Virus record (IMG/VR): IMGVR_UViG_2541047807_000005 | Source: a virus | Lineage: Duplodnaviria; Heunggongvirae; Uroviricota; Caudoviricetes | Length of the DNA stretch: 34,598 bases | Direction: 5' to 3' (one strand) | Part shown: positions 8,246-31,524 of the stretch, in pieces | How positions within the stretch are numbered: position 1 is the first letter of the stretch | How the letters are laid out: each line of letters begins with the position of its first letter | Translations under genes and position numbers: made by a program | Notes under the pieces: generated by a model | Told to the model about the DNA's origin: nothing | Database searches by the model: none | Seen by the model: only the letters and a program-made list of their open reading frames with translations

Positions 8246-8986
8246 TCAGTTTTCTTTGAATTTTTCACTTAATCGTTTCGTCAATACTTCGACAGATTCT
8301 TTGCGACCGGAGAACAAGTCATTGACGACGTACTCCATAATCTCAAAAGCATCCTCAATGTCTTTGACTTTTACTTCATCGTAGGTATGGCTTCCGGCAT
8401 TTCCTAAAAATTTAATTGCCATAAGAGGTCTTGAAAACGATCCGTATAATTCAGGTAGCATCCCTAAACGGTGGTGTAGAGTTATGCGTTTGCCATTATC
8501 ATTACGTTCAGCTACATCCATAGCGGTTAGCATTCTTTCAACTGAAATTCGAATTAGGTTTGCTGCTGCGCCAGGCTGTATTAGGAAAATGGAAAATGAG
8601 GCTTCAAGCGGTTCGGTAATTTCTTCTGGGCATTTTTCAGGTATTTCGAAAGGATGCAGTGATGGGTAAAAGGTGAAAGGTCTGTGCCATTGATAGTACT
8701 CAATATCATTTCTTTCTTCATCCCAACCTTGTTCCCATCCACTCTTACCAGTACAGGCCACAACTTCACCACATTGCATTCTTGAACAGCGGGCCATGCA
8801 ACTGAAAATAGATGAATCCATTTCTAGTTCAAACCAATCTTCACTGCGGAATTTTCGGGTATCATGTGTGTCATACGAGACGAAACTTTCTTTAATGATC
8901 TGTAGGGTTTTCTGATTGCAGTTAGGGCAGGGCCACTCAACCTGCATATCGTGGAAAAACGCACCAGAGAGCTTGTGCACAGTCAT
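8246..8986 (-). CDS. Hypothetical Cys-rich protein (246 aa) at the tin/old accessory position; candidate defence gene
   Basis: ORF with GAGGAA RBS; N-terminal CPNC...C-x3-C-x4-C-x5-C cluster; AT-rich versus phage core; opposite strand to gene A. Confidence 0.6.
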   Translation of the reverse strand: MTVHKLSGAFFHDMQVEWPCPNCNQKTLQIIKESFVSYDTHDTRKFRSEDWFELEMDSSIFSCMARCSRMQCGEVVACTGKSGWEQGWDEERNDIEYYQWHRPFTFYPSLHPFEIPEKCPEEITEPLEASFSIFLIQPGAAANLIRISVERMLTAMDVAERNDNGKRITLHHRLGMLPELYGSFSRPLMAIKFLGNAGSHTYDEVKVKDIEDAFEIMEYVVNDLFSGRKESVEVLTKRLSEKFKEN

Positions 8987-9187
8987 TCTTTGTGTTCCTC
9001 ATTTTTATGATTGGTAGGGATTGTATCTTCATACACGATTACAGTTGCATTAAAGATAAGCCATAGCAAGCTACTGGAAAAGAGACGAAACAGCTGGGCA
9101 TATCAGATGTTTTTTCTTAAGGTAAGTTGTTGTGCATGCCTATACTGCATGAGATTGCATGATCGTTTGAGGATCGTTATTGCTAAG

Positions 9188-9212
9188 GCCCACCAGAACT
9201 GGCGGGCTTTTG
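9188..9212 (+). terminator. Terminator-like hairpin (GCCCACCAG-aa-CTGGCGGGC then TTTT)
   Basis: 9-bp GC-rich stem with one mismatch followed by T run, inside the cos-containing intergenic region. Confidence 0.35.
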
Positions 9213-9256
9213 CGTAGAGCATGCAGGTGCATGAAAACAACTACATAAAGCGGGCA

Positions 9257-9275
9257 GGCGTGGCGGGGATACGAT
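9257..9275. other. Candidate cos cohesive-end sequence GGCGTGGCGGGGATACGAT
   Basis: Matches the 19-nt P2/186 cohesive end as I recall it (GGCG[A/T]GGCGGGGAAAGCA[C/T]) at about 14 to 16 of 19 positions; located upstream of portal Q as expected. Confidence 0.5.
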
Positions 9276-9344
9276 TGCGCGCAGAAGATTATTATTGGTA
9301 CACTGTCGGTGACTCTCTACGCAGATCTTACACATTAATTTCTA

Positions 9345-10157
9345 ATGGGGCATGCTATGATCTTTCTAAGTCATAATCACCGTGACAAAAGGTTTGTAAG
9401 TGTTATAGCGGAAAAACTAGCAGATGTTTATGGGCGTGATAACGTATTCTACGATTCTTGGTCTATCCAACCCGGAGAGGGTATTATTGACAAGATGAAT
9501 TTAGGAATGGAGAATGTATCGTTCTTTTTCTTTTTTGTCACAGAAAATAGCTTGGCAAGTAACATGGTAAAAATGGAATGGCAAAATGCTTTAATTAAGG
9601 CATCGTCCGGGAAGTGTAAATTTATACCAATACGTTGCCAGAATATATCCTTGCCTGCTCTGCTTACTCAAACGCTATATATTGATCTTTATTCGTATGG
9701 GATCGATGTGGCAATAAGACAAATTATAGATGTCATTAATCAACAAAATACGTATATTCCTAATCCTGAGAAGTATTCAAACCTCTCCTATGATATTAAG
9801 GATGATGATGGGGGTAAGATAGTGAAATTATCAGCAATGGATTTTTTAGAACCAATTGCTGATTTTATGATGATTATGGATAATACAATTAAGCATGATG
9901 ATGTTGTTGTTATGGTCAATGGAGAAAGCTCATTCACTCAGGGGTTTATTGAAAATGCATCTTTAGAAAATGGTATGAAAGTAAGTGGTGCCACTGTTGG
10001 CCTAAATCGGGGGTTAACACCAACGATGCCAATGTATGTTTCTCTTAGGTTAAAGGATGGTTCACCTTTGAATATATTTGCGGTGCTACATCGAGTAAGT
10101 ACCGAGCGTTATGCTCCTATACCACATAAAGCCGATGATGCCTTTAGAGTAAAATAA
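9345..10157 (+). CDS. TIR-domain protein (270 aa) with uncharacterised C-terminal domain; candidate anti-phage effector
   Basis: N-terminal region IFLSHNHRDKRFV...DSWSIQPGEGIIDKM...FFFFFVTENSLASNMVKMEW matches bacterial TIR pattern; AT-rich; between cos-like site and portal gene. Confidence 0.7.
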   Translation: MGHAMIFLSHNHRDKRFVSVIAEKLADVYGRDNVFYDSWSIQPGEGIIDKMNLGMENVSFFFFFVTENSLASNMVKMEWQNALIKASSGKCKFIPIRCQNISLPALLTQTLYIDLYSYGIDVAIRQIIDVINQQNTYIPNPEKYSNLSYDIKDDDGGKIVKLSAMDFLEPIADFMMIMDNTIKHDDVVVMVNGESSFTQGFIENASLENGMKVSGATVGLNRGLTPTMPMYVSLRLKDGSPLNIFAVLHRVSTERYAPIPHKADDAFRVK

Positions 10158-11230: not shown

Positions 11231-12993
11231 AAAATCTCCACAATATTACTGGTATTGGCGGACTCGCCCTGCAGTGGTTCGTTAAACAGTGCGTGCATTG
11301 TTGCCCAGGCCAGATCGGCGTGGCTGGCTTCTTCGCTGCGGCTGGCTTCATAGGTCGGGCGGTTGCCGCTGGCAGTGGTGGCGCGACGGATTGCCATAAA
11401 GGACTGCGCTATGTCGGTGTGCCCGGCGTCAAACTCCAGGCGGCGGTGGCTAATAATGTCGTAGGCCTTGAGTACCAGGGCGTTTTTAACGTTGGGGTTG
11501 TAGACAAACTCCCGGACGGCAGGAAAAAACGCTTTCACGTTCTCGTAAACCCCGTGACCGACGCCGGTTGAGTCGATACCGATGTATGTCACGTTGTACT
11601 GTTCAGTCAGTTTTTTGATGGCGTCAGCCTGGGCGCGGAAGTCCATCCCGCGCCACTGGTGACGCTCAAGAATGCGGAACTTACCGCCCGGCACGGCTGG
11701 CGGTGCCACCACCACGCACCCGGCGCTGTCGCCGTTTTGCGTACCTTTTGCCGGGTCATAACCGATCCACACTTCGCGCCAGCCAAACGGGCGCAGGGCC
11801 AGTGCATGAAAGTCGGTCCAGACTTCCCAACTGTCCACCATGCACGCCTGCAGCTCGCTGAGCGGGAACACGGACGCGAAATCGTCCACAAACTCGCACA
11901 TCAGCAGGTTCTGGTATTCGTCCGGGCTGTACTCCATGCGCAACTGATCGAGGTCGAAAAGGTTACATCCGCCGCGCACTGCATCTTCCACGGTGACTAT
12001 CTGGCGGTATTGCCCGTCTGCGCACAGCAGGCCGGGGGCCAGATTGCTGTGGGACAGGTCGATGTCCACCTTATCGGCTTTATTGCGCCCACGGTTGAAC
12101 AGCGCACCGGACCAGAACGGATAAGCACTGTGTGTCAGGCTGGATGGCGTGGAAAAATAGGTTTGTCGCCATTTTTTGTGAATAGCCATACCGGAAGCCA
12201 CTTTGCGCAGCTCCTGGAATTTCGGTATCCAGAAATATTCATCCAGATACAGGTTGCCGTGGTAACTCTGGGCCGTGCGGGCATTGGTGCCGAGGAAGTA
12301 AAGCGTGGCTCCGTTAGGAAGCACCATCGGATCGCCTTTCAGCTCCACCTCGACTTCTTTGGCGAAGTCTATGATGTACTGCTTAAAGACGTGAGCCTGT
12401 GCCTTGCTGGCGGAAAGAAAAATCTGGTTACGTCCGGTAAGCAGAGCGTCAATCAGGGCTTCACGGGCAAAGTAAAAGGTCGCGCCGATCTGGCGTGACT
12501 TCAGCAGGTTGCGGATGCGGTTGGTTTTTCCGGCTTCCCACCAGTGGCGCTGGTAGTTGAACATGGAGGAATGGAAGATTTCTTCCAGCTTCTCAATCTG
12601 CTCATCGGTGAAAACATTCTTTTCCGGCTGACGGCGCGGGCCTTTGTTGCGGTTGGCGACGTTAGGGTTTAAGTCGGCTTCGTTGCCGCCATTGTTAAAC
12701 TTGCCGATCCGCGCGTGGCGTTCCGACTGGCGCGCCAGCAGGTCAATCTCTTTGAAATCTTTCCCTTCTTTGTGCTCCTTCATAATGAGCTGGCAGTAGC
12801 GTGCGGCGGTGGTGAGCTGCATCTGATCCAGCGGCCCATAGTCACCCCACTTGTCGCGTTTTTTCCAGCTGTGAACGGTTGCAACTTTCTCGCCCAGCAT
12901 TTCAGCAATGCGGGCTACGCGGTATCCCTGAAAGTACAGCAGCATGGCCTGCCGACGGGGATCGAGATCTGCGGGTGTCAGTGTGGTGTTCAT
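11227..12993 (-). CDS. P: Terminase large (ATPase) subunit gpP
   Basis: 588 aa, synteny divergent from O; P2 gpP-like. Confidence 0.9.
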   Translation of the reverse strand: MNTTLTPADLDPRRQAMLLYFQGYRVARIAEMLGEKVATVHSWKKRDKWGDYGPLDQMQLTTAARYCQLIMKEHKEGKDFKEIDLLARQSERHARIGKFNNGGNEADLNPNVANRNKGPRRQPEKNVFTDEQIEKLEEIFHSSMFNYQRHWWEAGKTNRIRNLLKSRQIGATFYFAREALIDALLTGRNQIFLSASKAQAHVFKQYIIDFAKEVEVELKGDPMVLPNGATLYFLGTNARTAQSYHGNLYLDEYFWIPKFQELRKVASGMAIHKKWRQTYFSTPSSLTHSAYPFWSGALFNRGRNKADKVDIDLSHSNLAPGLLCADGQYRQIVTVEDAVRGGCNLFDLDQLRMEYSPDEYQNLLMCEFVDDFASVFPLSELQACMVDSWEVWTDFHALALRPFGWREVWIGYDPAKGTQNGDSAGCVVVAPPAVPGGKFRILERHQWRGMDFRAQADAIKKLTEQYNVTYIGIDSTGVGHGVYENVKAFFPAVREFVYNPNVKNALVLKAYDIISHRRLEFDAGHTDIAQSFMAIRRATTASGNRPTYEASRSEEASHADLAWATMHALFNEPLQGESANTSNIVEIF

Positions 12994-13039
12994 GGCACAA
13001 ACCTACAGCCTTGAATGAAGGCTTTCCCCGCCTGCGGTT

Positions 13040-13057
13040 TGTGTGGTTGTCGGTACA
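13040..13057. promoter_or_regulatory. Late-promoter activator dyad TGT-N12-ACA (Ogr-type) in the P/O divergent region
   Basis: TGTGTGGTTGTCGGTACA, ~80 bp upstream of the O start codon. Confidence 0.5.
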
Positions 13058-17598: not shown

Positions 17599-17731
17599 CG
17601 GTGATCTGAACGCGTTGCTGGATGAAACGGAGGCCGCCTGGGCAGTCTGTGCAGACAAAGTGGACATGATTATTGCGTGTCAGGAGCGAAACAGTGAACA
17701 AACCACAGTCCCTGCGCCACGCCCTCAATAA
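17441..17731 (+). CDS. lysC: LysC, Rz1-like o-spanin lipoprotein, overlapping lysB in another frame
   Basis: Lipobox LTLSGC after signal peptide; Pro-rich; embedded/overlapping arrangement typical of P2 lysB/lysC; GTG start assumed. Confidence 0.6.
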   Translation: MRTRIYTAGLILLCLLTLSGCGNVRHSPEVQLTVSGCPRVTPCRLDQAAPRTNGDLNALLDETEAAWAVCADKVDMIIACQERNSEQTTVPAPRPQ

Positions 17732-18125
17732 AGCGGTGCCTTATGTCCGCAATAACCCGGACAAACTGCATCTGTTTGTGGATAACGGTTCGCTGGTTGC
17801 CACGGGGGCCAGCTCCATGTCATGGGAGTACCGTTACACCCTGAACGTGGTGATTGAGGATTTCAGCGGCGACCAGAATCTGCTGATGGCCCCGGTTTTG
17901 CTGTGGCTGCGGGATAACCAGCCTGATGCCATCAATAATCCGGCGTTACGGGAAAAACTATTCACCTTTGAGGTGGACATTCTGCGCAACGATGTCTGTG
18001 ATATCAGCCTTAACCTGCAACTGACGGAGCGGGTGCTGGTCAGTACTGACGGCAGTGTGTCGAGCGTTGAAGCGGTAGCGGAACCCGATGAACCTGAAGA
18101 AATGTGGACGGTGAAACGTGGCTGA
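17694..18125 (+). CDS. R: Tail completion protein gpR
   Basis: GTG 17694 with AGGAG RBS; KPQSLRHAL...LFVDNGS resembles P2 gpR N-terminus. Confidence 0.8.
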   Translation: MNKPQSLRHALNKAVPYVRNNPDKLHLFVDNGSLVATGASSMSWEYRYTLNVVIEDFSGDQNLLMAPVLLWLRDNQPDAINNPALREKLFTFEVDILRNDVCDISLNLQLTERVLVSTDGSVSSVEAVAEPDEPEEMWTVKRG

Positions 18126-18561
18126 ACTGCAGAAAGTGGACGACTGGCTGAGTGCCTTGCTGGCGAATCTGGAGCCAGCTGCAAGAAGCCGTATGATGCG
18201 GCAGCTGGCGCAGGAACTGCGCCGGACACAGCAGCAGAATATCAGGATGCAGCGCAATCCTGACGGCAGCAGCTATGAACCGCGACGGTTAACAGCACGC
18301 AGTAAAAAAGGCCGTATCAAACGTCAGATGTTTGCAAAGCTGCGCACCACAAAATACCTGAAAACTGCCGCCAGCGCCGATTCTGCCAGCGTGCAGTTTG
18401 AAGGTAAGGTACAGCGCATTGCCCGTGTTCATCACTACGGCCTGCGTGATCGCGTCAGCCGTAAAGGCCCAGAGGTACGTTACGCTGAGCGAAATTTATT
18501 AGGAGTAAATAGTAACATCAAAACATCGATAAAGGATGTTTTGATGCAATGGCTTTTATAA
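18118..18561 (+). CDS. S: Tail completion protein gpS
   Basis: 147 aa, synteny; last ~25 codons are AT-rich (possible insertion junction). Confidence 0.8.
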   Translation: MAELQKVDDWLSALLANLEPAARSRMMRQLAQELRRTQQQNIRMQRNPDGSSYEPRRLTARSKKGRIKRQMFAKLRTTKYLKTAASADSASVQFEGKVQRIARVHHYGLRDRVSRKGPEVRYAERNLLGVNSNIKTSIKDVLMQWLL

Positions 18562-18578
18562 ATTAAGCTTCATTTGAC

Positions 18579-19316
18579 TCATTCATTGTCAAATAATTTT
18601 TGCTCTTTCAATATTTGTGTCGAAAAATTATTGCTTATTAATTTTACAAGCTTGCCGCACAAATTAAATGAATATCTAAAATAATCTAAGTCAGGGATGA
18701 GGTATTCTTTTTCTTCAGAGGATATTCCTGCCTCTAATAATTTTTTTTCATATCTTTGGTCCTTCACCCAATTATTATGGACTCCTGTGTCTCGTCTTGC
18801 TTTAATTTCAATGTATTGTTTTAAGAGATGTTCTATTTTCTTTTTGTCTAAGCATAAGAGTTTGCATAATTTATTGATGTATTCTTTGGGTGATCCAAAT
18901 GTGAGACTCGCGACTCCTTCGTTGACTAGATAGTCAAAAAGTTCATCTTCAGATAATGACTTAAACACCCCATAATCACACTTAATTTTATTTAGTTTTT
19001 CTGGATTGATCCTGAAGGTCAACTTCATGATTTCAATAATGTAATCTTCAAATGCTGAAACAAGCGAACTAAAGCACAATGATGGCATATGTTTTGTTAT
19101 TAAATCATGCCGTATTCCTTTATCTGAGATTTCAGGTGAATGTTTTTCCAGAAAGCATTCAAGATTTGTATAAGCCTCATAAAGCTGAGGGTTAGTTTCC
19201 TCATTGGCGTGAGAGATGGCAATGTTTTGAAATATAATTGTTCTGAATAAAATATCAGCTTTAATAAAATATGATGATGTGATTTTATCCAGGAAGAGAT
19301 AATTATCGGAGTGCAT
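18579..19316 (-). CDS. AT-rich moron protein (245 aa) with R-x4-H HEPN-like motif; candidate abortive-infection/toxin RNase
   Basis: ORF opposite to the late operon between S and V; GAGGAA RBS; motif ARRDTGVH at residues 174-180 (coords ~18777-18797); strongly AT-rich. Confidence 0.6.
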   Translation of the reverse strand: MHSDNYLFLDKITSSYFIKADILFRTIIFQNIAISHANEETNPQLYEAYTNLECFLEKHSPEISDKGIRHDLITKHMPSLCFSSLVSAFEDYIIEIMKLTFRINPEKLNKIKCDYGVFKSLSEDELFDYLVNEGVASLTFGSPKEYINKLCKLLCLDKKKIEHLLKQYIEIKARRDTGVHNNWVKDQRYEKKLLEAGISSEEKEYLIPDLDYFRYSFNLCGKLVKLISNNFSTQILKEQKLFDNE

Positions 19317-19343
19317 ATCATTTCCTCAAGGTAATGCGTCTAT

Positions 19344-19361
19344 TGTATCAGGCTTTATACA
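19344..19361. promoter_or_regulatory. Late-promoter activator dyad TGT-N12-ACA upstream of V
   Basis: TGTATCAGGCTTTATACA, perfect TGT-N12-ACA, ~50-60 bp upstream of candidate V starts. Confidence 0.55.
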
Positions 19362-19397
19362 TGAATGGATTGTGGATGAATATAATCATTTTCGTCA

Positions 19398-19988
19398 ATG
19401 ATACAGGCCATGAACGCACAATTAACCGAAATCATGCGCCTTATCACCAACCTGATCCGCACAGGTGTAGTCACCGAAGTGGACCGGGAAAACTGGCTTT
19501 GCCGGGTGAAAACGGGCGACCTTGAAACCAACTGGATTAGCTGGCTGACGCTGCGTGCCGGGAATGCCCGCACATGGTGGCGACCATCGGAAGGTGAGCA
19601 GGTGGTGCTGCTGAGTCTGGGAGGCAATCTGGAAACCGCCTTTGCGTTGCCCGCTGTCTATTCGAATCAGTTCGCTCCACCGTCGACGTCGGCGGACGCT
19701 TGCGTGACAGAGCATCCTGACGGCGGCTGGTTTGAATATGAACCCGCCACCGGGCGCTGGTATGTCAGGGGCATCAAATCAATGGTCATTGAGGCCGCTG
19801 ACAACATCACCATGAAAACCAGTGAGTTTGTACTGGAGGCTGACCGCACGAGCATTAACAGCGAAGTGGTGATCAATGGTGGCGTTACCCAGGGCGGCGG
19901 AGCGATGAGTTCTAACGGGATCGTGGTTGATGCGCATCAGCATACTGGCGTCCTGAAAGGCGGCGATACAACCGGAGGCCCGGTATGA
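19398..19988 (+). CDS. V: Baseplate spike/assembly protein gpV (alternative start ATG 19410)
   Basis: N-terminus aligns with P2 gpV (LIRTGVVTEVD...CRVKTG); synteny. Confidence 0.85.
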   Translation: MIQAMNAQLTEIMRLITNLIRTGVVTEVDRENWLCRVKTGDLETNWISWLTLRAGNARTWWRPSEGEQVVLLSLGGNLETAFALPAVYSNQFAPPSTSADACVTEHPDGGWFEYEPATGRWYVRGIKSMVIEAADNITMKTSEFVLEADRTSINSEVVINGGVTQGGGAMSSNGIVVDAHQHTGVLKGGDTTGGPV

Positions 19989-23169: not shown

Positions 23170-23589
23170 ATGTCATATTTTTATTCTGCATCGACAAACG
23201 GATTTTATTCGACTGAATTTCACGGCACCAATATTCCTGATGATGCAGTGGAAATCTCGGAATCAGAGTGGAAAACACTGATTAATTCACAGAGTGTAAC
23301 AAAAATGATTACCTGTGGTGAGAACGGTCACCCTGTCATTGTTGACCGTCCTTCTCCAACACCAGAACAATTAGCCTTAATAAATAATGAAAAGAAATCT
23401 GCACTGATAGCAGAGGCAACGAATGTAATAGCGCCGCTTCAGGATGCGGTTGATTTAGATATGGCAACAGATGATGAAACGAAACTGTTACTGGCATGGA
23501 AAAAATATCGCGTGCTATTGATGCGTGTTAATACTTCAACAGCACTCGATATTGAATGGCCTACGTCTCCGGCAGTTCAGGCCCGATGA
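23170..23589 (+). CDS. G: Tail fibre assembly protein gpG (Tfa)
   Basis: ATG 23170 just after H stop; N-terminus [17 protein letters not shown] typical of Tfa chaperones. Confidence 0.75.
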
Positions 23590-24154
23590 CATCCGGCGCG
23601 GTGCTGGTATCTGTTGCCGTCACCGCATCAATGTAATCCAGCACAGCGTTAAGCCGGGTGGTTTCTGTTTGCGACAGTTTTCGCCCGGTCTGCAATTTCA
23701 ACTGAATCAGACTGATGGAAGCCATAGCAGCATCAATCAGTGACTGGCGCTGTACTTCTGCCGTTTCTACTGCGGCACCGTGTTGTGCCTCAGTATCTGT
23801 CACCCATTTCTCACCATCCCATTTATCGTATGGCGTTAACGGTGAAAGCGTGACATAACCGTCTTTGATGGCACCGATATAATCCACAGTAATAGCTGCG
23901 CCATTTTCTGTTGAGTAAACAGTCTCATTGCGATGGTCTTCTTCATGGCTCCATCCCTTGCCCGTAAATACTGCCACTTTCCCCGGAATGTTTTCGCCCG
24001 GGGCAATACCAGTGGAACAGGCGGGCATACTTACACCAGTATTAATATATTCATCAGAGCAGCCCATATACTCAGATGTTTCAGCATCATAATAAAAACA
24101 ACGCATATCGCCCGGCACTGTAGCCAGCCCATTTTCATCAAAAACAGGTTTCAT
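23561..24154 (-). CDS. Alternative tail fibre assembly protein (inverted-orientation Tfa, U-prime-like), orphan
   Basis: Tfa-like N-terminus ([29 protein letters not shown]); convergent with G, 3-prime ends overlap; no cognate alternative fibre C-terminus present. Confidence 0.7.
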
Positions 24155-24179
24155 TATTTAGCCCTCACCAGAAAGTTAA

Positions 24180-24437
24180 ATGCAATATTTTTTTTATGTC
24201 ATGGGTGCTCTGGCTGAAATGGAACGCGAACTGATAGTTGAACGCACCAGGGCAGGGCTGGCTGCAGCTCGTGCCAAAGGCAGAGTAGGTGGACGCCGTA
24301 CTAAGTTGACCACCGAACAGTGGGCACAGATTGGACGTTTACTCGAGGCCGGAGAATCAAGACAACGTATTGCACTGATTTTTGATGTGGGCGTTTCTAC
24401 CATTTATAGAAAATTTCCGGCGAATAAGAGCAATTAA
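24180..24437 (+). pseudogene. Truncated serine DNA invertase (Gin/Hin/Pin family), C-terminal ~85 aa only
   Basis: FFYVMGALAEMERELIVERTRAGLAAARAKGRVGGR... matches the C-terminal half of Gin; N-terminal catalytic domain (~100 aa incl. active-site Ser) absent. Confidence 0.8.
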
Positions 24438-24494
24438 TCGCTCTGAATCAGCATTATTTTGATTATCCCTGCAAGTAGACAAATACCCTCATTT

Positions 24495-24512
24495 TGTATG
24501 AATAACTGTACA
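24495..24512. promoter_or_regulatory. Late-promoter activator dyad TGT-N12-ACA upstream of FI
   Basis: TGTATGAATAACTGTACA centred ~85 bp upstream of FI start codon. Confidence 0.55.
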
Positions 24513-24588
24513 ACTACACTTAGCTGTTTGTCAGGCACAATCACTTCAACATAGGGCGAAGCCTAATCCAATCAGGAGGTTCGCCACT

Positions 24589-26777: not shown

Positions 26778-29700
26778 TAATAACCTGCGCCTGCAGGTCA
26801 TTCTTAATGCGGTTGACAAACTCACCCGCCCATTTCGATCTGCGCAGGCCAGTTCAAGAGAACTGGCTGCTGCTGTCAAAAAATCCCGCGATGCAATAAA
26901 GCAGCTTGATCAGGCCGGGAGCAGTCTGGACAGCTTCCGAAAGCTGCAGGCAGAAAATCAGAAATTAGGCGACAGGCTGAACTATGCCCGCCAGCGTGCC
27001 AATTTGCTCAGTCAGGAACTGGGAGCGATGGGGCCGCCTTCGCAACGTCAGGTTGTCGCTCTGGGCCGTCAACGGCTGGCTGTTCAGCGCCTGGAAGAAC
27101 GCCAGAAAAAGCTGCAGCAGCAGACGGCGCTTGTGCGTGCAGAACTTTATCGTGCTGGTATTTCAGCTAATGATGGCGCCAGTGCGACGGCCCGCATTAC
27201 CCGTGAAACGATGCGTTATAACAGGCAGCTTTCTGAGCAGGAAGCGAGGTTACGACGTGTCGGGGAGCAACAGCGAAAAATGCACGCCGCCCGGGGGGCT
27301 TACGTCAGGCGTCTTGAGGTAAGGGATCGTATTGCAGGTGCTGGAGCCACCACCACGGCGGCAGGGCTGGCAATGGGCGCGCCAGTGATGGCGGCAGTAA
27401 AAAGCTATACCAGCATGGAAGATGCCATGAAAGGTGTGGCAAAGCAGGTCAATGGTCTGCGTGACGATAATGGCAACCGCACTGCACGTTTTTATGAAAT
27501 GCAGGATGCCATCAAGGCTGCCAGCGAACAGTTGCCGATGGAAAACGGTGCTGTGGACTTCGCCGCACTGGTTGAAGGTGGTGCGCGCATGAACGTCTCA
27601 AACCCTGATGACAGCTGGGAAGACCAGAAACGTGACCTGCTGGCCTTCGCCAGTACGGCTGCGAAGGCGGCAACAGCCTTTGAGCTGCCAGCGGATGAAC
27701 TGTCAGAAAGTCTGGGGAAAATCGCCCAGCTCTACAAAATACCTACCCGCAATATTGAACAGCTCGGCGATGCGCTGAACTATCTGGATGATAACGCCAT
27801 GTCGAAAGGGGCGGACATCATTGATGTGATGCAACGTCTGGGCGGTGTGGCTGACCGTCTGGATTATCGTAAAGCGGCGGCACTGGGTTCCACCTTTCTG
27901 ACACTGAGCGCTGCGCCGGAGGTTGCAGCCAGTGCAGCAAACGCGATGGTGCGTGAATTGTCCATTGCCACCATGCAAAGCAAGAGTTTCTTTGAAGGGA
28001 TGAATCTGCTGAAACTCAATCCTGAAGTGATTGAAAAGCAGATGACGAAGGATGCGATGGGAACTATCCAGCGTGTGCTGGAGAAGGTGAACGCACTGCC
28101 GCAGGACAAGCGTCTGTCTGCCATGACCATGTTGTTTGGTAAAGAGTTTGGCGATGACGCAGCGAAACTGGCAAACAACCTGCCGGAACTGCAGCGCCAG
28201 TTAAAACTGACAGCGGGCAATGATGCGCTCGGCTCCATGCAGAAAGAATCCGACATTAACAAGGATTCACTTTCTGCGCAGTGGTTGCTGGTCAAAACCA
28301 CTGCGCAGAATACCTTCAGCAGCCTGGGCGAAACGCTGCGCCAGCCGCTGATGGATATTCTGTACACGGTGAAAAGCGTCACGGGGGCGTTGCGTCGCTG
28401 GGTGGAAGCTAACCCGGAACTGACGGGCACACTGATGAAAGTAGCAGCGGTTGTGGCTGCCGTTACCGTGGGCCTCGGCACCCTGGCTGTGGTGTTGGCT
28501 GCAGTGCTGGGGCCGCTGGCAGTGATCCGTCTGGGATTCTCTGTGCTGGGTATCAAAACGTTACCTTCCGTTACGGCAGCAGTAACACGAACCAGCAGCG
28601 CGTTGTCCTGGCTGGCTGGCGCTCCACTGGCAGTGCTGCGACGCGGGCTTGCTTCATCGGGTAACGCAGCGGGTTTACTTACTGCGCCGTTGTCGTCTTT
28701 GCGCCGTATGGCATCACTGACGGGAAATGTCCTGAAAACTGTAGCAGGTGCGCCGGTTGCACTATTGCGGTCCGGTTTATCCGCTTTACGTGCTGTTGCT
28801 GTGATGTTTATGAATCCTCTGGCGGTACTGCGCGGTGGACTGGCTGCCGCAGGCGCGGTGCTTCGTGTGCTGGCATCTGGTCCGCTGGCGATGCTGCGCG
28901 TTGCCCTGTATGCCGTATCTGGTCTGTTAGGTGCTCTGCTCAGTCCGATAGGTCTTGTGGTTACTGCACTGACGGGTGTGGCGCTGGTTGTCTGGAAATA
29001 CTGGCAACCCATCACCGCATTTCTCGGTGGCGTGGTGGAAGGATTCAAAGCGGCGGCAGGTCCCATCAGTGCAGCATTCGAACCACTTAAGCCTGTGTTT
29101 CAGTGGATTGGCGACAAAGTGCAGGCGCTGTGGGGCTGGTTTACTGATCTGCTGACGCCCGTTAAGTCGACCTCTGCTGAACTGCAGAGCGCAGCGGCAA
29201 TGGGGCAACGATTCGGGGAGGCACTGGCGGAAGGACTGAATATGGTCATGCATCCGCTGGACTCCCTGAAATCCGGCGTATCCTGGTTGCTGGAAAAACT
29301 CGGCATTGTCAGTAAAGAGGCCGCAAAGGCAAAACTGCCGGAAAGCGTGACGCGTCAGCAACCTGCGACGGTGAATGCAGACGGCAAAGTGATGATACCA
29401 TCGGGTGGTTTTCCGTCATGGGGATATGGCTTTGCGGGGATGTATGACAGCGGCGGCTATATCCCGCGCGGGCAGTTTGGCATCGTCGGTGAAAACGGGC
29501 CTGAAATTATCAACGGCCCGGCAAATGTGACCAGCCGGAAAAATACAGCTGCACTGGCTGCCGTTGTTGCCGGAATGATGGGCGTTGCTGCCGCGCCTGC
29601 AGAGCTTCCACCGTTACATCCTTTGGCACTTCCCGCGAAAGGCGGCGAAGCGATGGTGAGTCGTGCAGCCACTGTGCCGCCCGTTCAACGGATTGAGGCA

Positions 29701-29847
29701 CCGACGCAGATCATCATTCAGACGCAGCCAGGACAAAGTGCGCAGGATATTGCGCGGGAGGTGGCCCGCCAGCTTGATGAACGTGAACGCAGGCTGAAGG
29801 CAAAAGCCAGGAGTAACTACAGCGATCAGGGGGGATACGACGCATGA
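26770..29847 (+). CDS. T: Tail tape measure protein gpT
   Basis: 1025 aa, coiled-coil N-terminal region, hydrophobic Ala/Leu/Val-rich central region; synteny. Confidence 0.9.
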   Translation: MSDNNLRLQVILNAVDKLTRPFRSAQASSRELAAAVKKSRDAIKQLDQAGSSLDSFRKLQAENQKLGDRLNYARQRANLLSQELGAMGPPSQRQVVALGRQRLAVQRLEERQKKLQQQTALVRAELYRAGISANDGASATARITRETMRYNRQLSEQEARLRRVGEQQRKMHAARGAYVRRLEVRDRIAGAGATTTAAGLAMGAPVMAAVKSYTSMEDAMKGVAKQVNGLRDDNGNRTARFYEMQDAIKAASEQLPMENGAVDFAALVEGGARMNVSNPDDSWEDQKRDLLAFASTAAKAATAFELPADELSESLGKIAQLYKIPTRNIEQLGDALNYLDDNAMSKGADIIDVMQRLGGVADRLDYRKAAALGSTFLTLSAAPEVAASAANAMVRELSIATMQSKSFFEGMNLLKLNPEVIEKQMTKDAMGTIQRVLEKVNALPQDKRLSAMTMLFGKEFGDDAAKLANNLPELQRQLKLTAGNDALGSMQKESDINKDSLSAQWLLVKTTAQNTFSSLGETLRQPLMDILYTVKSVTGALRRWVEANPELTGTLMKVAAVVAAVTVGLGTLAVVLAAVLGPLAVIRLGFSVLGIKTLPSVTAAVTRTSSALSWLAGAPLAVLRRGLASSGNAAGLLTAPLSSLRRMASLTGNVLKTVAGAPVALLRSGLSALRAVAVMFMNPLAVLRGGLAAAGAVLRVLASGPLAMLRVALYAVSGLLGALLSPIGLVVTALTGVALVVWKYWQPITAFLGGVVEGFKAAAGPISAAFEPLKPVFQWIGDKVQALWGWFTDLLTPVKSTSAELQSAAAMGQRFGEALAEGLNMVMHPLDSLKSGVSWLLEKLGIVSKEAAKAKLPESVTRQQPATVNADGKVMIPSGGFPSWGYGFAGMYDSGGYIPRGQFGIVGENGPEIINGPANVTSRKNTAALAAVVAGMMGVAAAPAELPPLHPLALPAKGGEAMVSRAATVPPVQRIEAPTQIIIQTQPGQSAQDIAREVARQLDERERRLKAKARSNYSDQGGYDA

Positions 29848-30329
29848 TGATGGTGCTGGGATTGTACGTGTTTATGCTGCGCACCGTGCCGTATCAGGAA
29901 CTGCAGTATCAACGCAGCTGGCGACATGCGGCAAACAGCCGGGTAAACCGTCGTCCGTCCACGCAGTTTCTGGGACCGGAAAACGATATGCTGACGCTTT
30001 CCGGTGTTCTTATGCCGGAGATAACAGGCGGCAGGCTGTCGTTGCTGGCACTGGAGCAGATGGCAGAACAGGGGAAAGCATGGCCCCTGATTGAAGGCAG
30101 CGGCACGATTTACGGCATGTATGTGATTGAGGGACTGAATCAGACTAAAACGGAGTTTTTCCGCGACGGTATGCCGCGCCGGATTGAGTTCACCCTGTCG
30201 CTAAAACGGGTGGATGAATCCCTGTCCGATATGTTCGGTGATCTCAGTACTCAACTGAATAATCTGCAGGACACGGCAACGTCTGCTTTAAGCGATATCA
30301 GTAAAACGGTGGGAGGGCTGCTGTCGTGA
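29844..30329 (+). CDS. U: Tail protein gpU
   Basis: 161 aa, overlaps T stop, synteny. Confidence 0.8.
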   Translation: MMMVLGLYVFMLRTVPYQELQYQRSWRHAANSRVNRRPSTQFLGPENDMLTLSGVLMPEITGGRLSLLALEQMAEQGKAWPLIEGSGTIYGMYVIEGLNQTKTEFFRDGMPRRIEFTLSLKRVDESLSDMFGDLSTQLNNLQDTATSALSDISKTVGGLLS

Positions 30330-31434
30330 ATTTCAGCTCTGAACTGCTTAACAAAGGCAACAAAACTCCGGCATTCAGCATCAGTGTTGAGGGCAGGGAT
30401 ATCACCACTGTGCTGGACAACCGCCTGATGGGGCTTACGCTGACGGATAACCGGGGCTTTGAAGCGGACCAGCTTGATCTGGAGCTGGACGACGCTGATG
30501 GAAAAATCGTGCTGCCGCGCCGTGGTGCGGTCATTACGCTGGCGCTGGGCTGGAAGGGACAGCCGCTTTTCCCGAAAGGGGCATTCACGGTGGACGAGAT
30601 TGAACACACTGGCGCACCGGACCGCCTGACCATCCGGGCGCGAAGTGCTGATTTTCGGGAAACGCTGAATACCCGCCGTGAAAAATCGTGGCACAAGACC
30701 ACGGTCGGGGAAGTGGTGAAGGAAATAGCTGCGCGGCACAAACTGAAGATGGCACTGGGTAAAGACCTGTCGGATAAGCCCGTGGAACATATAGACCAGA
30801 CCAATGAGAGTGACGGCAGTTTTCTGATGCGGCTGGCGCGCCAGTACGGTGCTATTGCGTCGGTGAAAAATGGCAATCTGTTATTCATCCGGCAGGGACA
30901 GGGCAAAAGCGCCAGCGGTAAACCTCTGCCGGTGATCACTATCACACGCAAGGACGGCGACAGTCACCGCTTTACCCTGGCAGATCGCGGAGCCTATACG
31001 GGCGTAATTGCCAGTTGGTTGCATACCCGCGAACCCGCGAACCCGCGAAGAAAGAAAGCACCACGGTGAAGCGTAAGCGCAGGACCGCAAAGCAGAAGAA
31101 AGAGCCGGAAGCGAAGCAGGGCGATTACCTGGTGGGTACGGATGAAAACGTGCTGGTACTTAATCGCACTTATGCCAACCGGAGCAACGCCGAACGGGCA
31201 GCGAAAATGCAGTGGGAACGCCTGCAACGCGGCGTTGCATCATTCTCGCTACAACCGGCGGAAGGGCGGGCAGATCTCTACACAGAAATGCCTGTGAAGG
31301 TCAGTGGCTTTAAACAGCCGATAGATGATGCGGAATGGACCATTACGACTCTGACGCATACCGTCAGCCCGGATAACGGTTTTACGACCAGTCTGGAGCT
31401 TGAAGTGAGGATTGATGATTTCGAAATGGAATGA
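30326..31434 (+). pseudogene. D: Tail protein gpD, interrupted by frameshift at an 8-bp tandem repeat (two ORFs 30326..31069 and 31015..31434)
   Basis: The two ORFs together equal P2 gpD length (~386 aa) and both resemble gpD; removing one CCCGCGAA copy fuses the frames. Confidence 0.75.
31026..31049 (+). repeat. Tandem octamer CCCGCGAA x3 within gene D
   Basis: Three perfect direct copies at 31026-31033, 31034-31041, 31042-31049. Confidence 0.9.
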
Positions 31435-31524
31435 TTCTTCGCAATGGAGAACTTTTAAGTTTGCAAAATGGAATGATGCGGTATCATTATTGTGAATTTA
31501 GCAAAAATGGGGAGAACTCGAAAA

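What the first reader, a model, noticed from the sequence alone, without database searches (positions are those of the whole stretch)
18579..19316. AT-rich moron with an R-x4-H (HEPN-like) motif inserted between tail genes S and V
A 245-aa ORF on the opposite strand interrupts the otherwise co-directional late operon between S and the V late promoter. It is very AT-rich against a GC-rich background and has its own RBS. The motif RRDTGVH (residues 174-180) fits the HEPN RNase signature R-x4-6-H found in many abortive-infection and toxin proteins. The last ~25 codons of S are also AT-rich, suggesting the insertion replaced the native 3-prime end of S.
Basis: partly seen in the sequence, partly recalled or inferred. 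Interest (0 to 1): 0.7.

Follow-up and report, generated by a model that had tools for sequence, protein, structure and literature searches.

The report
Solo HEPN-like gene in P2 prophage slot
An AT-rich, backwards-facing gene wedged between two tail genes of a P2-like E. coli prophage encodes an unannotated protein that has the hallmarks of a HEPN RNase, so it is most likely a single-gene anti-phage "suicide" nuclease sitting in a swappable cargo slot.

The parts
18579..19316 (-). 245-aa ORF encoding a solitary HEPN-like protein. Residues 1 to ~70 form a subfamily-specific helical N-terminal region. Residues ~72-235 form the HEPN-like core: helix 72-103 carries E90, 105-153 is a helical insert, helix 158-181 ends in R175...H180, and 210-235 is the last helix.
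18777..18797 (-). Codons for R174-R175-D176-T177-G178-V179-H180, the predicted catalytic Rx4H motif. E90 is encoded at 19047-19049.
   Evidence: Read directly from the sequence. R175 and H180 are invariant in 70 relatives, and D176 is at least 90% conserved.
19323..19327 (-). GAGGA Shine-Dalgarno sequence, 6 nt upstream of the ATG at 19316.
19369..19398 (-). Candidate sigma-70 promoter for the ORF (TTGACG-18 nt-CACAAT, 9 of 12 matches), divergent from PV and overlapping it. This is a consensus match only.
19344..19361 (+). TGT-N12-ACA dyad of the Ogr-dependent late promoter PV, 48 nt before the V ATG.
   Evidence: It is invariant in four divergent cassettes of this family and in the empty junction, at the same alignment position upstream of the V ATG. 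The consensus comes from PMC3931495.
18492..18561 (+). AT-rich (GC 0.257), recoded last ~23 codons of gpS. They belong to the cassette rather than to the phage backbone.
   Evidence: gpS still matches PF05069 over its full length.
18515..18547 (-). Perfect 13-bp hairpin immediately downstream of the ORF stop and inside the S 3' end. It is a candidate terminator and is not conserved in all cassettes.
   Evidence: (z = -4.95).
18492..19409 (.). The whole exchangeable cassette: S 3' end, ORF, and the divergent promoter region including the PV dyad.
   Evidence: Homology breakpoints against the empty, TIR and FRG junctions. In strain SCU-115 the cassette is identical except for one inserted base and sits next to a V gene that differs at 39 positions.
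18118..18561 (+). gpS (tail completion / virion morphogenesis), the last gene of the PO late operon and the left flank.
19410..19988 (+). gpV (baseplate spike), the first gene of the PV late operon and the right flank.

Best explanation
The ORF encodes a solitary member of a previously uncurated family within the HEPN superfamily. I predict it is a metal-independent RNase whose active site uses R175, D176 and H180 at the end of core helix 3, together with E90 on an earlier core helix. It is carried as a lysogeny-expressed moron in the S-V (orf30) cargo slot of P2-like prophages. The most likely function is abortive infection or superinfection exclusion: the protein rests inactive in the lysogen and cleaves RNA when a competing phage infects. 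The variable ~70-residue N-terminal helices and the insert are the likely sensing or regulatory part. The cassette sits in the gap between the PO and PV late operons and brings its own S C-terminus and PV dyad, so tail-gene expression is kept. It spreads by homologous recombination through S and V. Because the gene faces the PO operon, late transcription may dampen it during the prophage's own lytic growth. Shown here: the gene, selection on it, motif conservation, the predicted fold, the slot and cassette boundaries, and the absence of a partner gene. Inferred: RNase activity, the defence role, the trigger, and regulation by convergent transcription.
Confidence: 0.6

Rival explanations
1. The protein is a HEPN RNase, but it serves the prophage rather than defence. 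It could be an addiction or stabilisation toxin held in check by an unrecognised antitoxin (a small overlapping peptide, an antisense RNA or a host factor), or a nuclease used in the phage's own lytic programme.
For: The HEPN evidence is the same as for the best explanation. Many HEPN proteins are toxins of toxin-antitoxin modules (PMC3710099). Some distant relatives have a small co-directional upstream ORF, and four Planctomycete loci share a related one. An antisense frame stays open for 60-82 codons in four divergent cassettes. A frameshifted copy exists, which would fit a fitness cost.
Against: There is no MNT or other recurrent partner gene. The cassette holds no second gene, tandem repeat or Rfam element. 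The open antisense frame is a generic property of that reading frame. The gene is antisense to the late operons, which argues against a late lytic function.
Confidence: 0.17
2. The protein is not a nuclease. It is a helical-bundle moron protein with some other role, for example a regulator, an anti-defence factor or an exclusion factor that acts by binding. On this view the conserved R/H/E residues serve binding or structure.
For: No curated HEPN model matches. The fold matches are modest and designed bundles score similarly. Foldseek against the PDB is empty. Catalytically inactive HEPN domains exist (PMC3710099).
Against: Only four residues are invariant across 70 very divergent sequences. 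Three of them are the acidic, arginine and histidine residues that the HEPN definition names as catalytic, and they have the defining spacing, a polar residue after the R, and the defining position on the helix. According to Anantharaman et al., inactive HEPN domains typically lose this motif.
Confidence: 0.18
3. The ORF is a chance reading frame or a decaying pseudogene in an AT-rich non-coding insert.
For: One of the four E. coli copies is split by a frameshift. The gene has no annotation beyond 'hypothetical protein'.
Against: The sequence at GC 0.32 is rich in potential stop codons, yet it keeps a 245-codon frame. dN/dS is 0.09-0.15. The family has 1,050 representatives with full-length matches. 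The structure model is confident. The gene has a good Shine-Dalgarno sequence.
Confidence: 0.01

Closest known systems
HepS (STM14_3211) of Salmonella prophage Gifsy-1, a solitary HEPN abortive-infection anticodon nuclease (PMC13043305)
   Different: The HepS motif is at R100-H105, whereas here it is at R175-H180, preceded by ~70 extra N-terminal residues and a ~50-residue insert. My profile searches of PDB sequences found no sequence relationship, although I could not confirm that HepS is in that PDB copy. [quoted passage not shown] The trigger, target and oligomeric state of this protein are unknown.
Tha (tail-activated HEPN) of S. aureus prophages, with its antisense inhibitor Ith (PMC11087260)
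   Same: Both are prophage-encoded HEPN proteins expressed in the lysogen, and both face the problem of autoimmunity when the prophage is induced. In both, the gene lies opposite another transcription unit.
   Different: Tha has a dedicated overlapping antisense inhibitor gene. No such gene is demonstrable here; there is only the convergent PO late operon. The two have no sequence relationship and different hosts.
RiboL-PSP-HEPN (PF18735) and the distantly related AbiD/AbiF (Abi_2) HEPN families (PMC3710099)
   Same: PF18735 is the best-scoring curated family in the weak Pfam hits (2 of 70 relatives, best E = 0.0011). Both have an Rx4H motif in the C-terminal half of a protein of about 200-350 aa. 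AbiD and AbiF are single-gene Abi systems.
   Different: The hits are below any curated threshold. There is no fusion to L-PSP and no ParB operon. Abi_2 gave no hit.
P2 orf30 and the other horizontally acquired P2 regions (TO region with old/tin, Z region with Z/fun)
   Same: The position between S and V is the same. The region is AT-rich and foreign, and it is variable among P2-like phages (PMC3091744, PMC6823313).
   Different: P2 orf30 is a 261-bp ORF of unknown function, whereas this gene is 738 bp and belongs to an unrelated family. The defence-hotspot studies resolve the gpA-gpQ and Z/fun loci but do not treat S-V as a distinct slot (PMC9122126, PMC9519451, 10.1101/2024.10.15.618418). 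PMC13586616 lumps it into 'downstream of GpL'.
HEPN-MNT (HepT/MntA) type II/VII toxin-antitoxin modules
   Different: There is no adjacent nucleotidyltransferase antitoxin. This protein is about twice the size, and only 1 of 70 relatives gives a weak HepT-like hit (E = 0.064).

Membership tests
HEPN superfamily (definition of Anantharaman et al. 2013, PMC3710099) | A conserved Rx4-6H motif | tested here: met
   R175-x4-H180 is invariant in 19 close homologues and in 70 diverse relatives at 16-55% identity.
HEPN superfamily | [quoted passage not shown] | tested here: met
   D176 is invariant in the close set and at least 90% conserved in the diverse set.
HEPN superfamily | The motif lies at the end of core helix 3 and the start of the loop to helix 4 | tested here: met
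   The AlphaFold model has a helix at 158-181 that ends at the motif, followed by a loop with a short helix and then the last helix at 210-235. This is a predicted structure, not an experimental one.
HEPN superfamily | A second conserved acidic residue upstream, in helix 2, typically as E-x3-[K/R] | tested here: inconclusive
   E90 is invariant and lies in helix 72-103.
HEPN superfamily | A four-helix up-down bundle, often with an insert between helices 2 and 3 | tested here: met
HEPN superfamily | Metal-independent RNase activity that depends on the R and H residues | not testable with these tools
   This needs biochemistry.
Any curated HEPN sequence family (Pfam clan CL0291 and other HEPN models; NCBIfam; PADLOC) | A score above the curated threshold of a family model | tested here: not met
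   The window protein has no HEPN hit at E <= 1. Of 70 relatives, 2 hit PF18735 weakly (best E = 0.0011) and 1 hits HepT-like at E = 0.064. The only PADLOC hit among the 70 relatives is a single chance-level PtuB match at E = 0.0057.
RiboL-PSP-HEPN (PF18735) | [quoted passage not shown] | tested here: not met
   The protein is a single domain. No L-PSP or ParB family appears among the recurrent families in the 150 neighbours of 41 loci.
HEPN-MNT toxin-antitoxin module | An adjacent minimal nucleotidyltransferase antitoxin gene | tested here: not met
   The cassette 18492-19409 contains only this ORF. No nucleotidyltransferase family recurs among the neighbours.
HepS-type solitary prophage HEPN Abi (PMC13043305) | Sequence homology to HepS, whose motif is at R100-H105 | tested here: inconclusive
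   Profile searches of PDB sequences returned no HEPN protein. I could not confirm that HepS is in that PDB copy, and I had no HepS sequence to compare directly.
HepS-type solitary prophage HEPN Abi | A standalone gene without a partner, encoded in a prophage accessory slot | tested here: met
HepS-type solitary prophage HEPN Abi | Abortive-infection phenotype triggered by a phage structural protein | not testable with these tools
   This needs phage challenge and escaper mapping.
Cargo of the P2 S-V (orf30) slot | Located between gpS and gpV of a P2-like phage, with foreign base composition and variable presence among relatives | tested here: met
   The slot is defined in PMC3091744 and PMC6823313.

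The most novel reading that the evidence does not exclude
The S-V (orf30) junction may be a distinct, self-contained plug-in defence slot of P2-like phages. Each cargo would travel as a cassette with its own recoded S C-terminus and its own copy of the PV Ogr dyad, so that swapping never breaks tail assembly. This HEPN family would be a new single-protein abortive-infection nuclease. Its variable N-terminal helices would sense a structural protein of an incoming phage. Its antisense placement opposite the PO operon would switch it off by convergent late transcription during the prophage's own induction, which would be a protein-free solution to the autoimmunity problem that Tha solves with Ith and HepS solves with a non-triggering tail variant.
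Probability: 0.15. Interest if true: 0.65.

Novelty: new member of a known kind. Interest (0 to 1): 0.45.

Why it matters
If this is right, it adds an uncurated and fairly large HEPN family (about 1,050 clusters at 50% identity, spread across many bacterial phyla) to the set of candidate single-gene anti-phage nucleases. Current annotation tools (Pfam, NCBIfam, PADLOC, PHROGs) do not see this family. It also points to the S-V junction of P2-like prophages as a cargo slot holding TIR, FRG, DUF6216, DUF5677 and this HEPN family. The main hotspot studies did not resolve this slot. The cassettes have an unusual design, because each carries a recoded end of an essential tail gene plus the next operon's activator site. 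That makes the slot a convenient place to mine and test new defence genes, and a simple model for how phages swap cargo without damaging their late operons.

Tried and rejected
Family libraries. Pfam, NCBIfam, PHROGs and PADLOC give no hit for the window protein. Among 70 relatives there are only chance-level hits apart from HEPN_RiboL-PSP.

PDB sequence searches with two family profiles found nothing relevant.

Foldseek against the PDB gave no significant match. afdb50 was not available. BFVD returned only another uncharacterised metagenomic phage protein.

hhalign of the family profile against the window's DUF4145 (HEPN) protein gave no relationship. This is uninformative, because HEPN families are very divergent from one another and the template was a single sequence.

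A second word-indexed homologue search with the family profile added nothing.

tblastn against sequenced phages and plasmids found no homologue. The 741-bp ORF reported at this position in phage R18C is therefore probably a different protein, if that phage is in the collection.

Partner-gene search. BLAST clustering and Pfam and PADLOC scans of 150 neighbours found no recurrent partner.

RNA antitoxin and transposition footprints. I found no tandem repeats, no Rfam family and no flanking repeats.

Conserved terminator hairpin. It is present in the window and arguably in L069, but absent in L005 and L012, so I rejected it as a family feature.

Conserved antisense gene. The antisense frame is open for 60-82 codons in four cassettes. 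I judged this a generic frame effect and did not pursue it.

The RefSeq accession WP_000555306 appears in no paper in the searched library.

Full report
OBSERVATION

The window is a complete P2/186-like prophage. It is 100% identical over the 2-kb query to a prophage of E. coli strain Rb-23 that lies between rcdA and ybjL. The reported ORF exists at 18579-19316 on the minus strand and is 245 aa long. It is flanked by gpR (17673-18125, PF06891), gpS (18118-18561, PF05069 over its full length) and gpV (PF04717 + Apex).

GC content drops from about 0.57 to 0.30-0.34 across the region. In detail, the ORF is at 0.316, the last 70 nt of S at 0.257, the ORF-V spacer at 0.355, the 5' part of S at 0.567, and V at 0.570.

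A GAGGA Shine-Dalgarno sequence lies 6 nt before the ATG, and residues 174-180 read RRDTGVH. Every factual element of the finding is therefore confirmed.

Two refinements apply. First, the conserved V start is the ATG at 19410, where homology to all other prophages resumes, not the upstream ATG at 19398. Second, P2 late genes are organised as four Ogr-dependent operons: PP-PQ, PO-ONMLKRS, PV-VWJIHG and PF-FI...D, each with a TGT-N12-ACA element (PMC3931495). The ORF therefore sits in the gap between the end of the PO operon and the PV promoter, not inside an operon.

The window has TGT-N12-ACA matches at 12982 and 13040 (the divergent P/O region), at 19344 (upstream of V) and at 24495 (about 155 nt upstream of the sheath gene). 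These are the positions expected for the four late promoters, even though the pattern is not enriched overall (8 matches against 9.6 expected by chance).

THE GENE IS REAL AND CONSTRAINED

A word-indexed search found 19 homologues in Klebsiella, Enterobacter and Pantoea, all either unnamed or labelled 'hypothetical protein'. An exhaustive profile search of 1.84 billion cluster representatives found 1,050 relatives at E <= 1e-3 and 219 at E <= 1e-10, mostly 220-260 aa long. A scan of species-representative genomes found 41 loci across Proteobacteria, Planctomycetota, Chloroflexota, Bacteroidota, Cyanobacteria, Acidobacteriota and other phyla.

Nei-Gojobori dN/dS is 0.09-0.15 in the pairs that are not saturated. 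Synonymous sites are saturated between the window gene and its 75%-identical relatives, while the flanking gpR proteins are 77-93% identical. The cargo is therefore much more diverged than the backbone it sits in.

WHAT THE PROTEIN IS

No curated library recognises it. Pfam, NCBIfam, PHROGs and PADLOC give no relevant hit at E <= 1.

In the 19 close homologues the block E170-I-K-A-R-R-D-x-G-V-H-N-N-W183 is invariant. In 70 diverse relatives at 16-55% identity, only E90, R175, H180 and Y189 are invariant. P105, E170, K172, A173, D176, N186, K192 and Y212 are at least 90% conserved.

AlphaFold2 with the 19-sequence alignment gives a confident all-alpha model (mean pLDDT 87.3, pTM 0.83). Its helices are 4-35, 43-59, 72-103, several short helices in 105-153, 158-181, 187-196 and 210-235.

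Anantharaman et al. 2013 (PMC3710099) define the HEPN domain by four features:
- a four-helix bundle that frequently has an insert between helices 2 and 3;
- a polar residue (N, D or H) immediately after the R;
- a conserved acidic residue upstream, in helix 2.

The model maps onto these features well. E90 lies in helix 72-103. A helical insert spans 105-153. R175-D176-x3-H180 lies at the C-terminal end of helix 158-181. The final helix is 210-235. The one imperfect point is that E90 is not in an E-x3-[K/R] context.

The best-scoring weak Pfam signal among the 70 relatives is HEPN_RiboL-PSP (2 members, best E = 0.0011), plus one HepT-like hit at E = 0.064. Anantharaman et al. describe the RiboL-PSP family as distantly related to AbiD and AbiF.

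Most distant relatives match only profile positions from about 70 to 235. The first ~70 residues are therefore a variable, subfamily-specific module placed in front of the conserved core.

I conclude that the protein founds an uncurated family of the HEPN superfamily and is predicted to be catalytically active. I put the probability at roughly 0.8.

SOLITARY STATUS

The cassette contains no second gene. It has no tandem repeats that would suggest a ToxI-like RNA antitoxin, no credible Rfam match and no flanking repeats.

I called ORFs around the 41 distant loci and clustered the neighbours. No shared neighbour family emerged, apart from a small upstream ORF shared by four Planctomycete loci. 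Pfam scanning of 150 neighbours at positions +/-1 and +/-2 shows no family present more than twice, and most neighbours are housekeeping genes.

A PADLOC scan of the same neighbours finds about 11 defence proteins: type I and type IIG restriction enzymes, Shedu SduA, a DRT reverse transcriptase, mad2 three times, and several PDC candidates. This is a modest enrichment and I did not test it rigorously.

THE SLOT

All 20 contexts examined for relatives at 36-100% identity are the same place, antisense between gpV and gpS of a P2-like phage. These comprise four Klebsiella loci, three Enterobacter contigs, two of them only 1-2 kb long, one Pantoea locus, one further Klebsiella locus and 11 IMG/VR viral contigs, one of which is identical to the window. 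Three distant viral relatives at 24-28% identity are not in this slot.

In E. coli, 1,041 of 5,426 complete genomes carry the S and V flanks, but only 4 carry this cargo. I examined an evenly spaced sample of 50 junctions that had both flanks:
- 31 are empty (1,224-bp span; see L002);
- 5 carry a DUF6216 protein, including strain BL21;
- 3 carry a TIR-domain protein;
- 2 carry an FRG-domain protein;
- 1 carries a DUF5677 protein;
- 6 carry assorted hypothetical proteins, falling into five different size classes;
- 1 carries this ORF;
- 1 is rearranged.

This position is that of P2 orf30, one of the three classic horizontally acquired regions of P2-like phages along with the TO and Z regions (PMC3091744; PMC6823313).

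The defence-hotspot literature resolves the gpA-gpQ locus and the Z/fun locus (PMC9122126; PMC9519451; 10.1101/2024.10.15.618418). The 2026 survey uses only seven core markers, so it bins everything 'downstream of GpL / within the tail genes' together, at 16% of systems (PMC13586616). The S-V slot has therefore not been treated as a distinct defence locus in these studies. Neither the protein's RefSeq accession nor any library model points to prior characterisation.

CASSETTE ANATOMY

I aligned the window with an empty junction, a TIR junction and an FRG junction. Homology ends at about 18492, roughly 23 codons before the S stop, and resumes exactly at the V ATG at 19410.

In each occupied junction examined, the last 70 nt of S are AT-rich: GC is 0.26-0.30 in four cassettes of this family and 0.33 in the TIR and FRG cassettes. 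In the empty junction the figure is 0.53. Despite this, the S C-terminus keeps its length and the pattern LLG.N...WL. Each cassette therefore brings its own recoded end of an essential tail gene.

On the other side, the TTGTAT...ACA dyad is invariant in four divergent cassettes of this family and in the empty junction, at the same alignment position upstream of the V ATG, while the surrounding sequence differs.

In strain SCU-115 the 2-kb region differs from the window at 40 positions. Of these, 39 lie in V from 19463 onward, and the cassette is otherwise identical. This is a signature of recent exchange by homologous recombination through the flanks.

A candidate sigma-70 promoter for the ORF (TTGACG-18 nt-CACAAT at 19398-19369, minus strand) overlaps the PV region. 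A perfect 13-bp hairpin (18515-18547; z = -4.95) follows the ORF stop, inside the S 3' end. This hairpin is not conserved across cassettes.

MECHANISM

The most likely mechanism, at confidence 0.6, is a solitary HEPN RNase expressed from the prophage during lysogeny. It would be inactive at rest, would be activated by infection, and would cleave RNA to abort the infection.

Two experimentally characterised analogues support this reading. HepS of Gifsy-1 is a solitary HEPN with no partner gene; it is non-toxic by default, tetrameric, activated by tail-tip protein, and is a tRNA anticodon nuclease (PMC13043305). Tha of S. aureus prophages is activated by tail proteins and is inhibited by an antisense-encoded protein during induction (PMC11087260).

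The gene converges on the PO operon. Late transcription could therefore dampen it during the prophage's own lytic cycle. This step is inference only.

The rival explanations are a HEPN toxin with a non-defence role (0.17), a non-catalytic helical protein (0.18) and a spurious ORF (0.01).

NOVELTY AND SCORE

The kind of element, a prophage-encoded solitary HEPN defence gene in a known P2 moron region, is established. The family itself is uncurated and untested. The cassette design of the S-V slot is a useful secondary observation. I rate the finding as a new member of a known kind, with interest 0.45.

Noticed in passing
window 8246-10157: The prophage's other cargo locus lies between the DinI-like gene and portal gpQ, which is the Rousset 2022 gpA-gpQ hotspot. 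It holds a DUF4145 protein (8246-8986, minus strand; PF13643, E = 4.9e-13) and a divergent TIR_2 protein (9357-10157, plus strand; E = 3.9e-23). DUF4145 is itself a HEPN family (PMC3710099), so this prophage carries two HEPN-type genes plus a TIR gene. The pair could be a two-gene defence system.
   Followed up: partly
window 18492-18561; L003, L004, L005, L009, L012 (S 3' ends): In each occupied S-V junction examined (this family, TIR, FRG) the last ~70 nt of gpS are AT-rich (GC 0.26-0.33), against 0.53 in the empty junction. The S C-terminal length and the LLG.N...WL pattern are preserved. The cargo cassettes therefore carry a recoded end of an essential tail gene.
   Followed up: yes
window 18741-18748 (ORF codons E190-K192); L068 880-1618: The ORF contains an A8 homopolymer just after the catalytic motif. 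In E. coli SCU-115 the only difference across the whole ORF is one extra A in this tract, which splits the gene into annotated fragments of 603 bp and 174 bp. This could be a real inactivating slip, possibly reversible, or an assembly error.
   Followed up: partly
window 19410-19988 versus L068: This is a mosaic. The S gene and the cassette are identical between the window and SCU-115 apart from the single inserted A, but V differs at 39 positions from 19463 onward. This indicates a recent recombination breakpoint near the start of V.
   Followed up: partly
window 12982-12999, 13040-13057, 19344-19361, 24495-24512: Four of the eight TGT-N12-ACA matches in the window fall where the P2 late promoters PP, PO, PV and PF are expected, although the pattern is not enriched overall (8 found against 9.6 expected).
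   Followed up: partly
window 18515-18547: A perfect 13-bp hairpin (RNA fold z = -4.95) lies inside the coding 3' end of S, immediately downstream of the ORF stop on the minus strand. It might terminate the moron transcript, the PO operon transcript, or both. It is absent from the Klebsiella (L005) and Pantoea (L012) cassettes.
   Followed up: yes
L001 28849-33512 (window ~26848-31511): In the RefSeq annotation of the Rb-23 prophage (100% identical to the window over the 2-kb query), the tape-measure gene and the gpD late-control gene are both flagged as frameshifted pseudogenes. The prophage may therefore be defective for particle production. I did not re-check this in the window sequence.
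   Followed up: no
L001 25216-26516 (window ~23215-24515): Two oppositely oriented tail-fibre assembly genes sit next to a truncated recombinase (invertase) pseudogene. This looks like the remnant of an invertible host-range segment in the Z/fun region.
   Followed up: no
L064 1960-2785: In one IMG/VR contig the homologue (38% identity) is separated from gpS by about 800 bp of extra sequence. This suggests the S-V slot can hold a second cargo gene.
   Followed up: no
H70-H72 (E. coli BL21, Rosetta2, K207-3): The laboratory strain BL21 carries a DUF6216-family protein in the same S-V slot of its P2-like prophage. This gives an easily available strain for testing cargo function at this locus.
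   Followed up: no
L036, L039, L040, L042 (ORF immediately upstream of the HEPN-like gene): In four Planctomycete loci a related ORF (80-152 aa) lies directly upstream of the distant family member and in the same direction. This may be a lineage-specific partner or antitoxin.
   Followed up: partly
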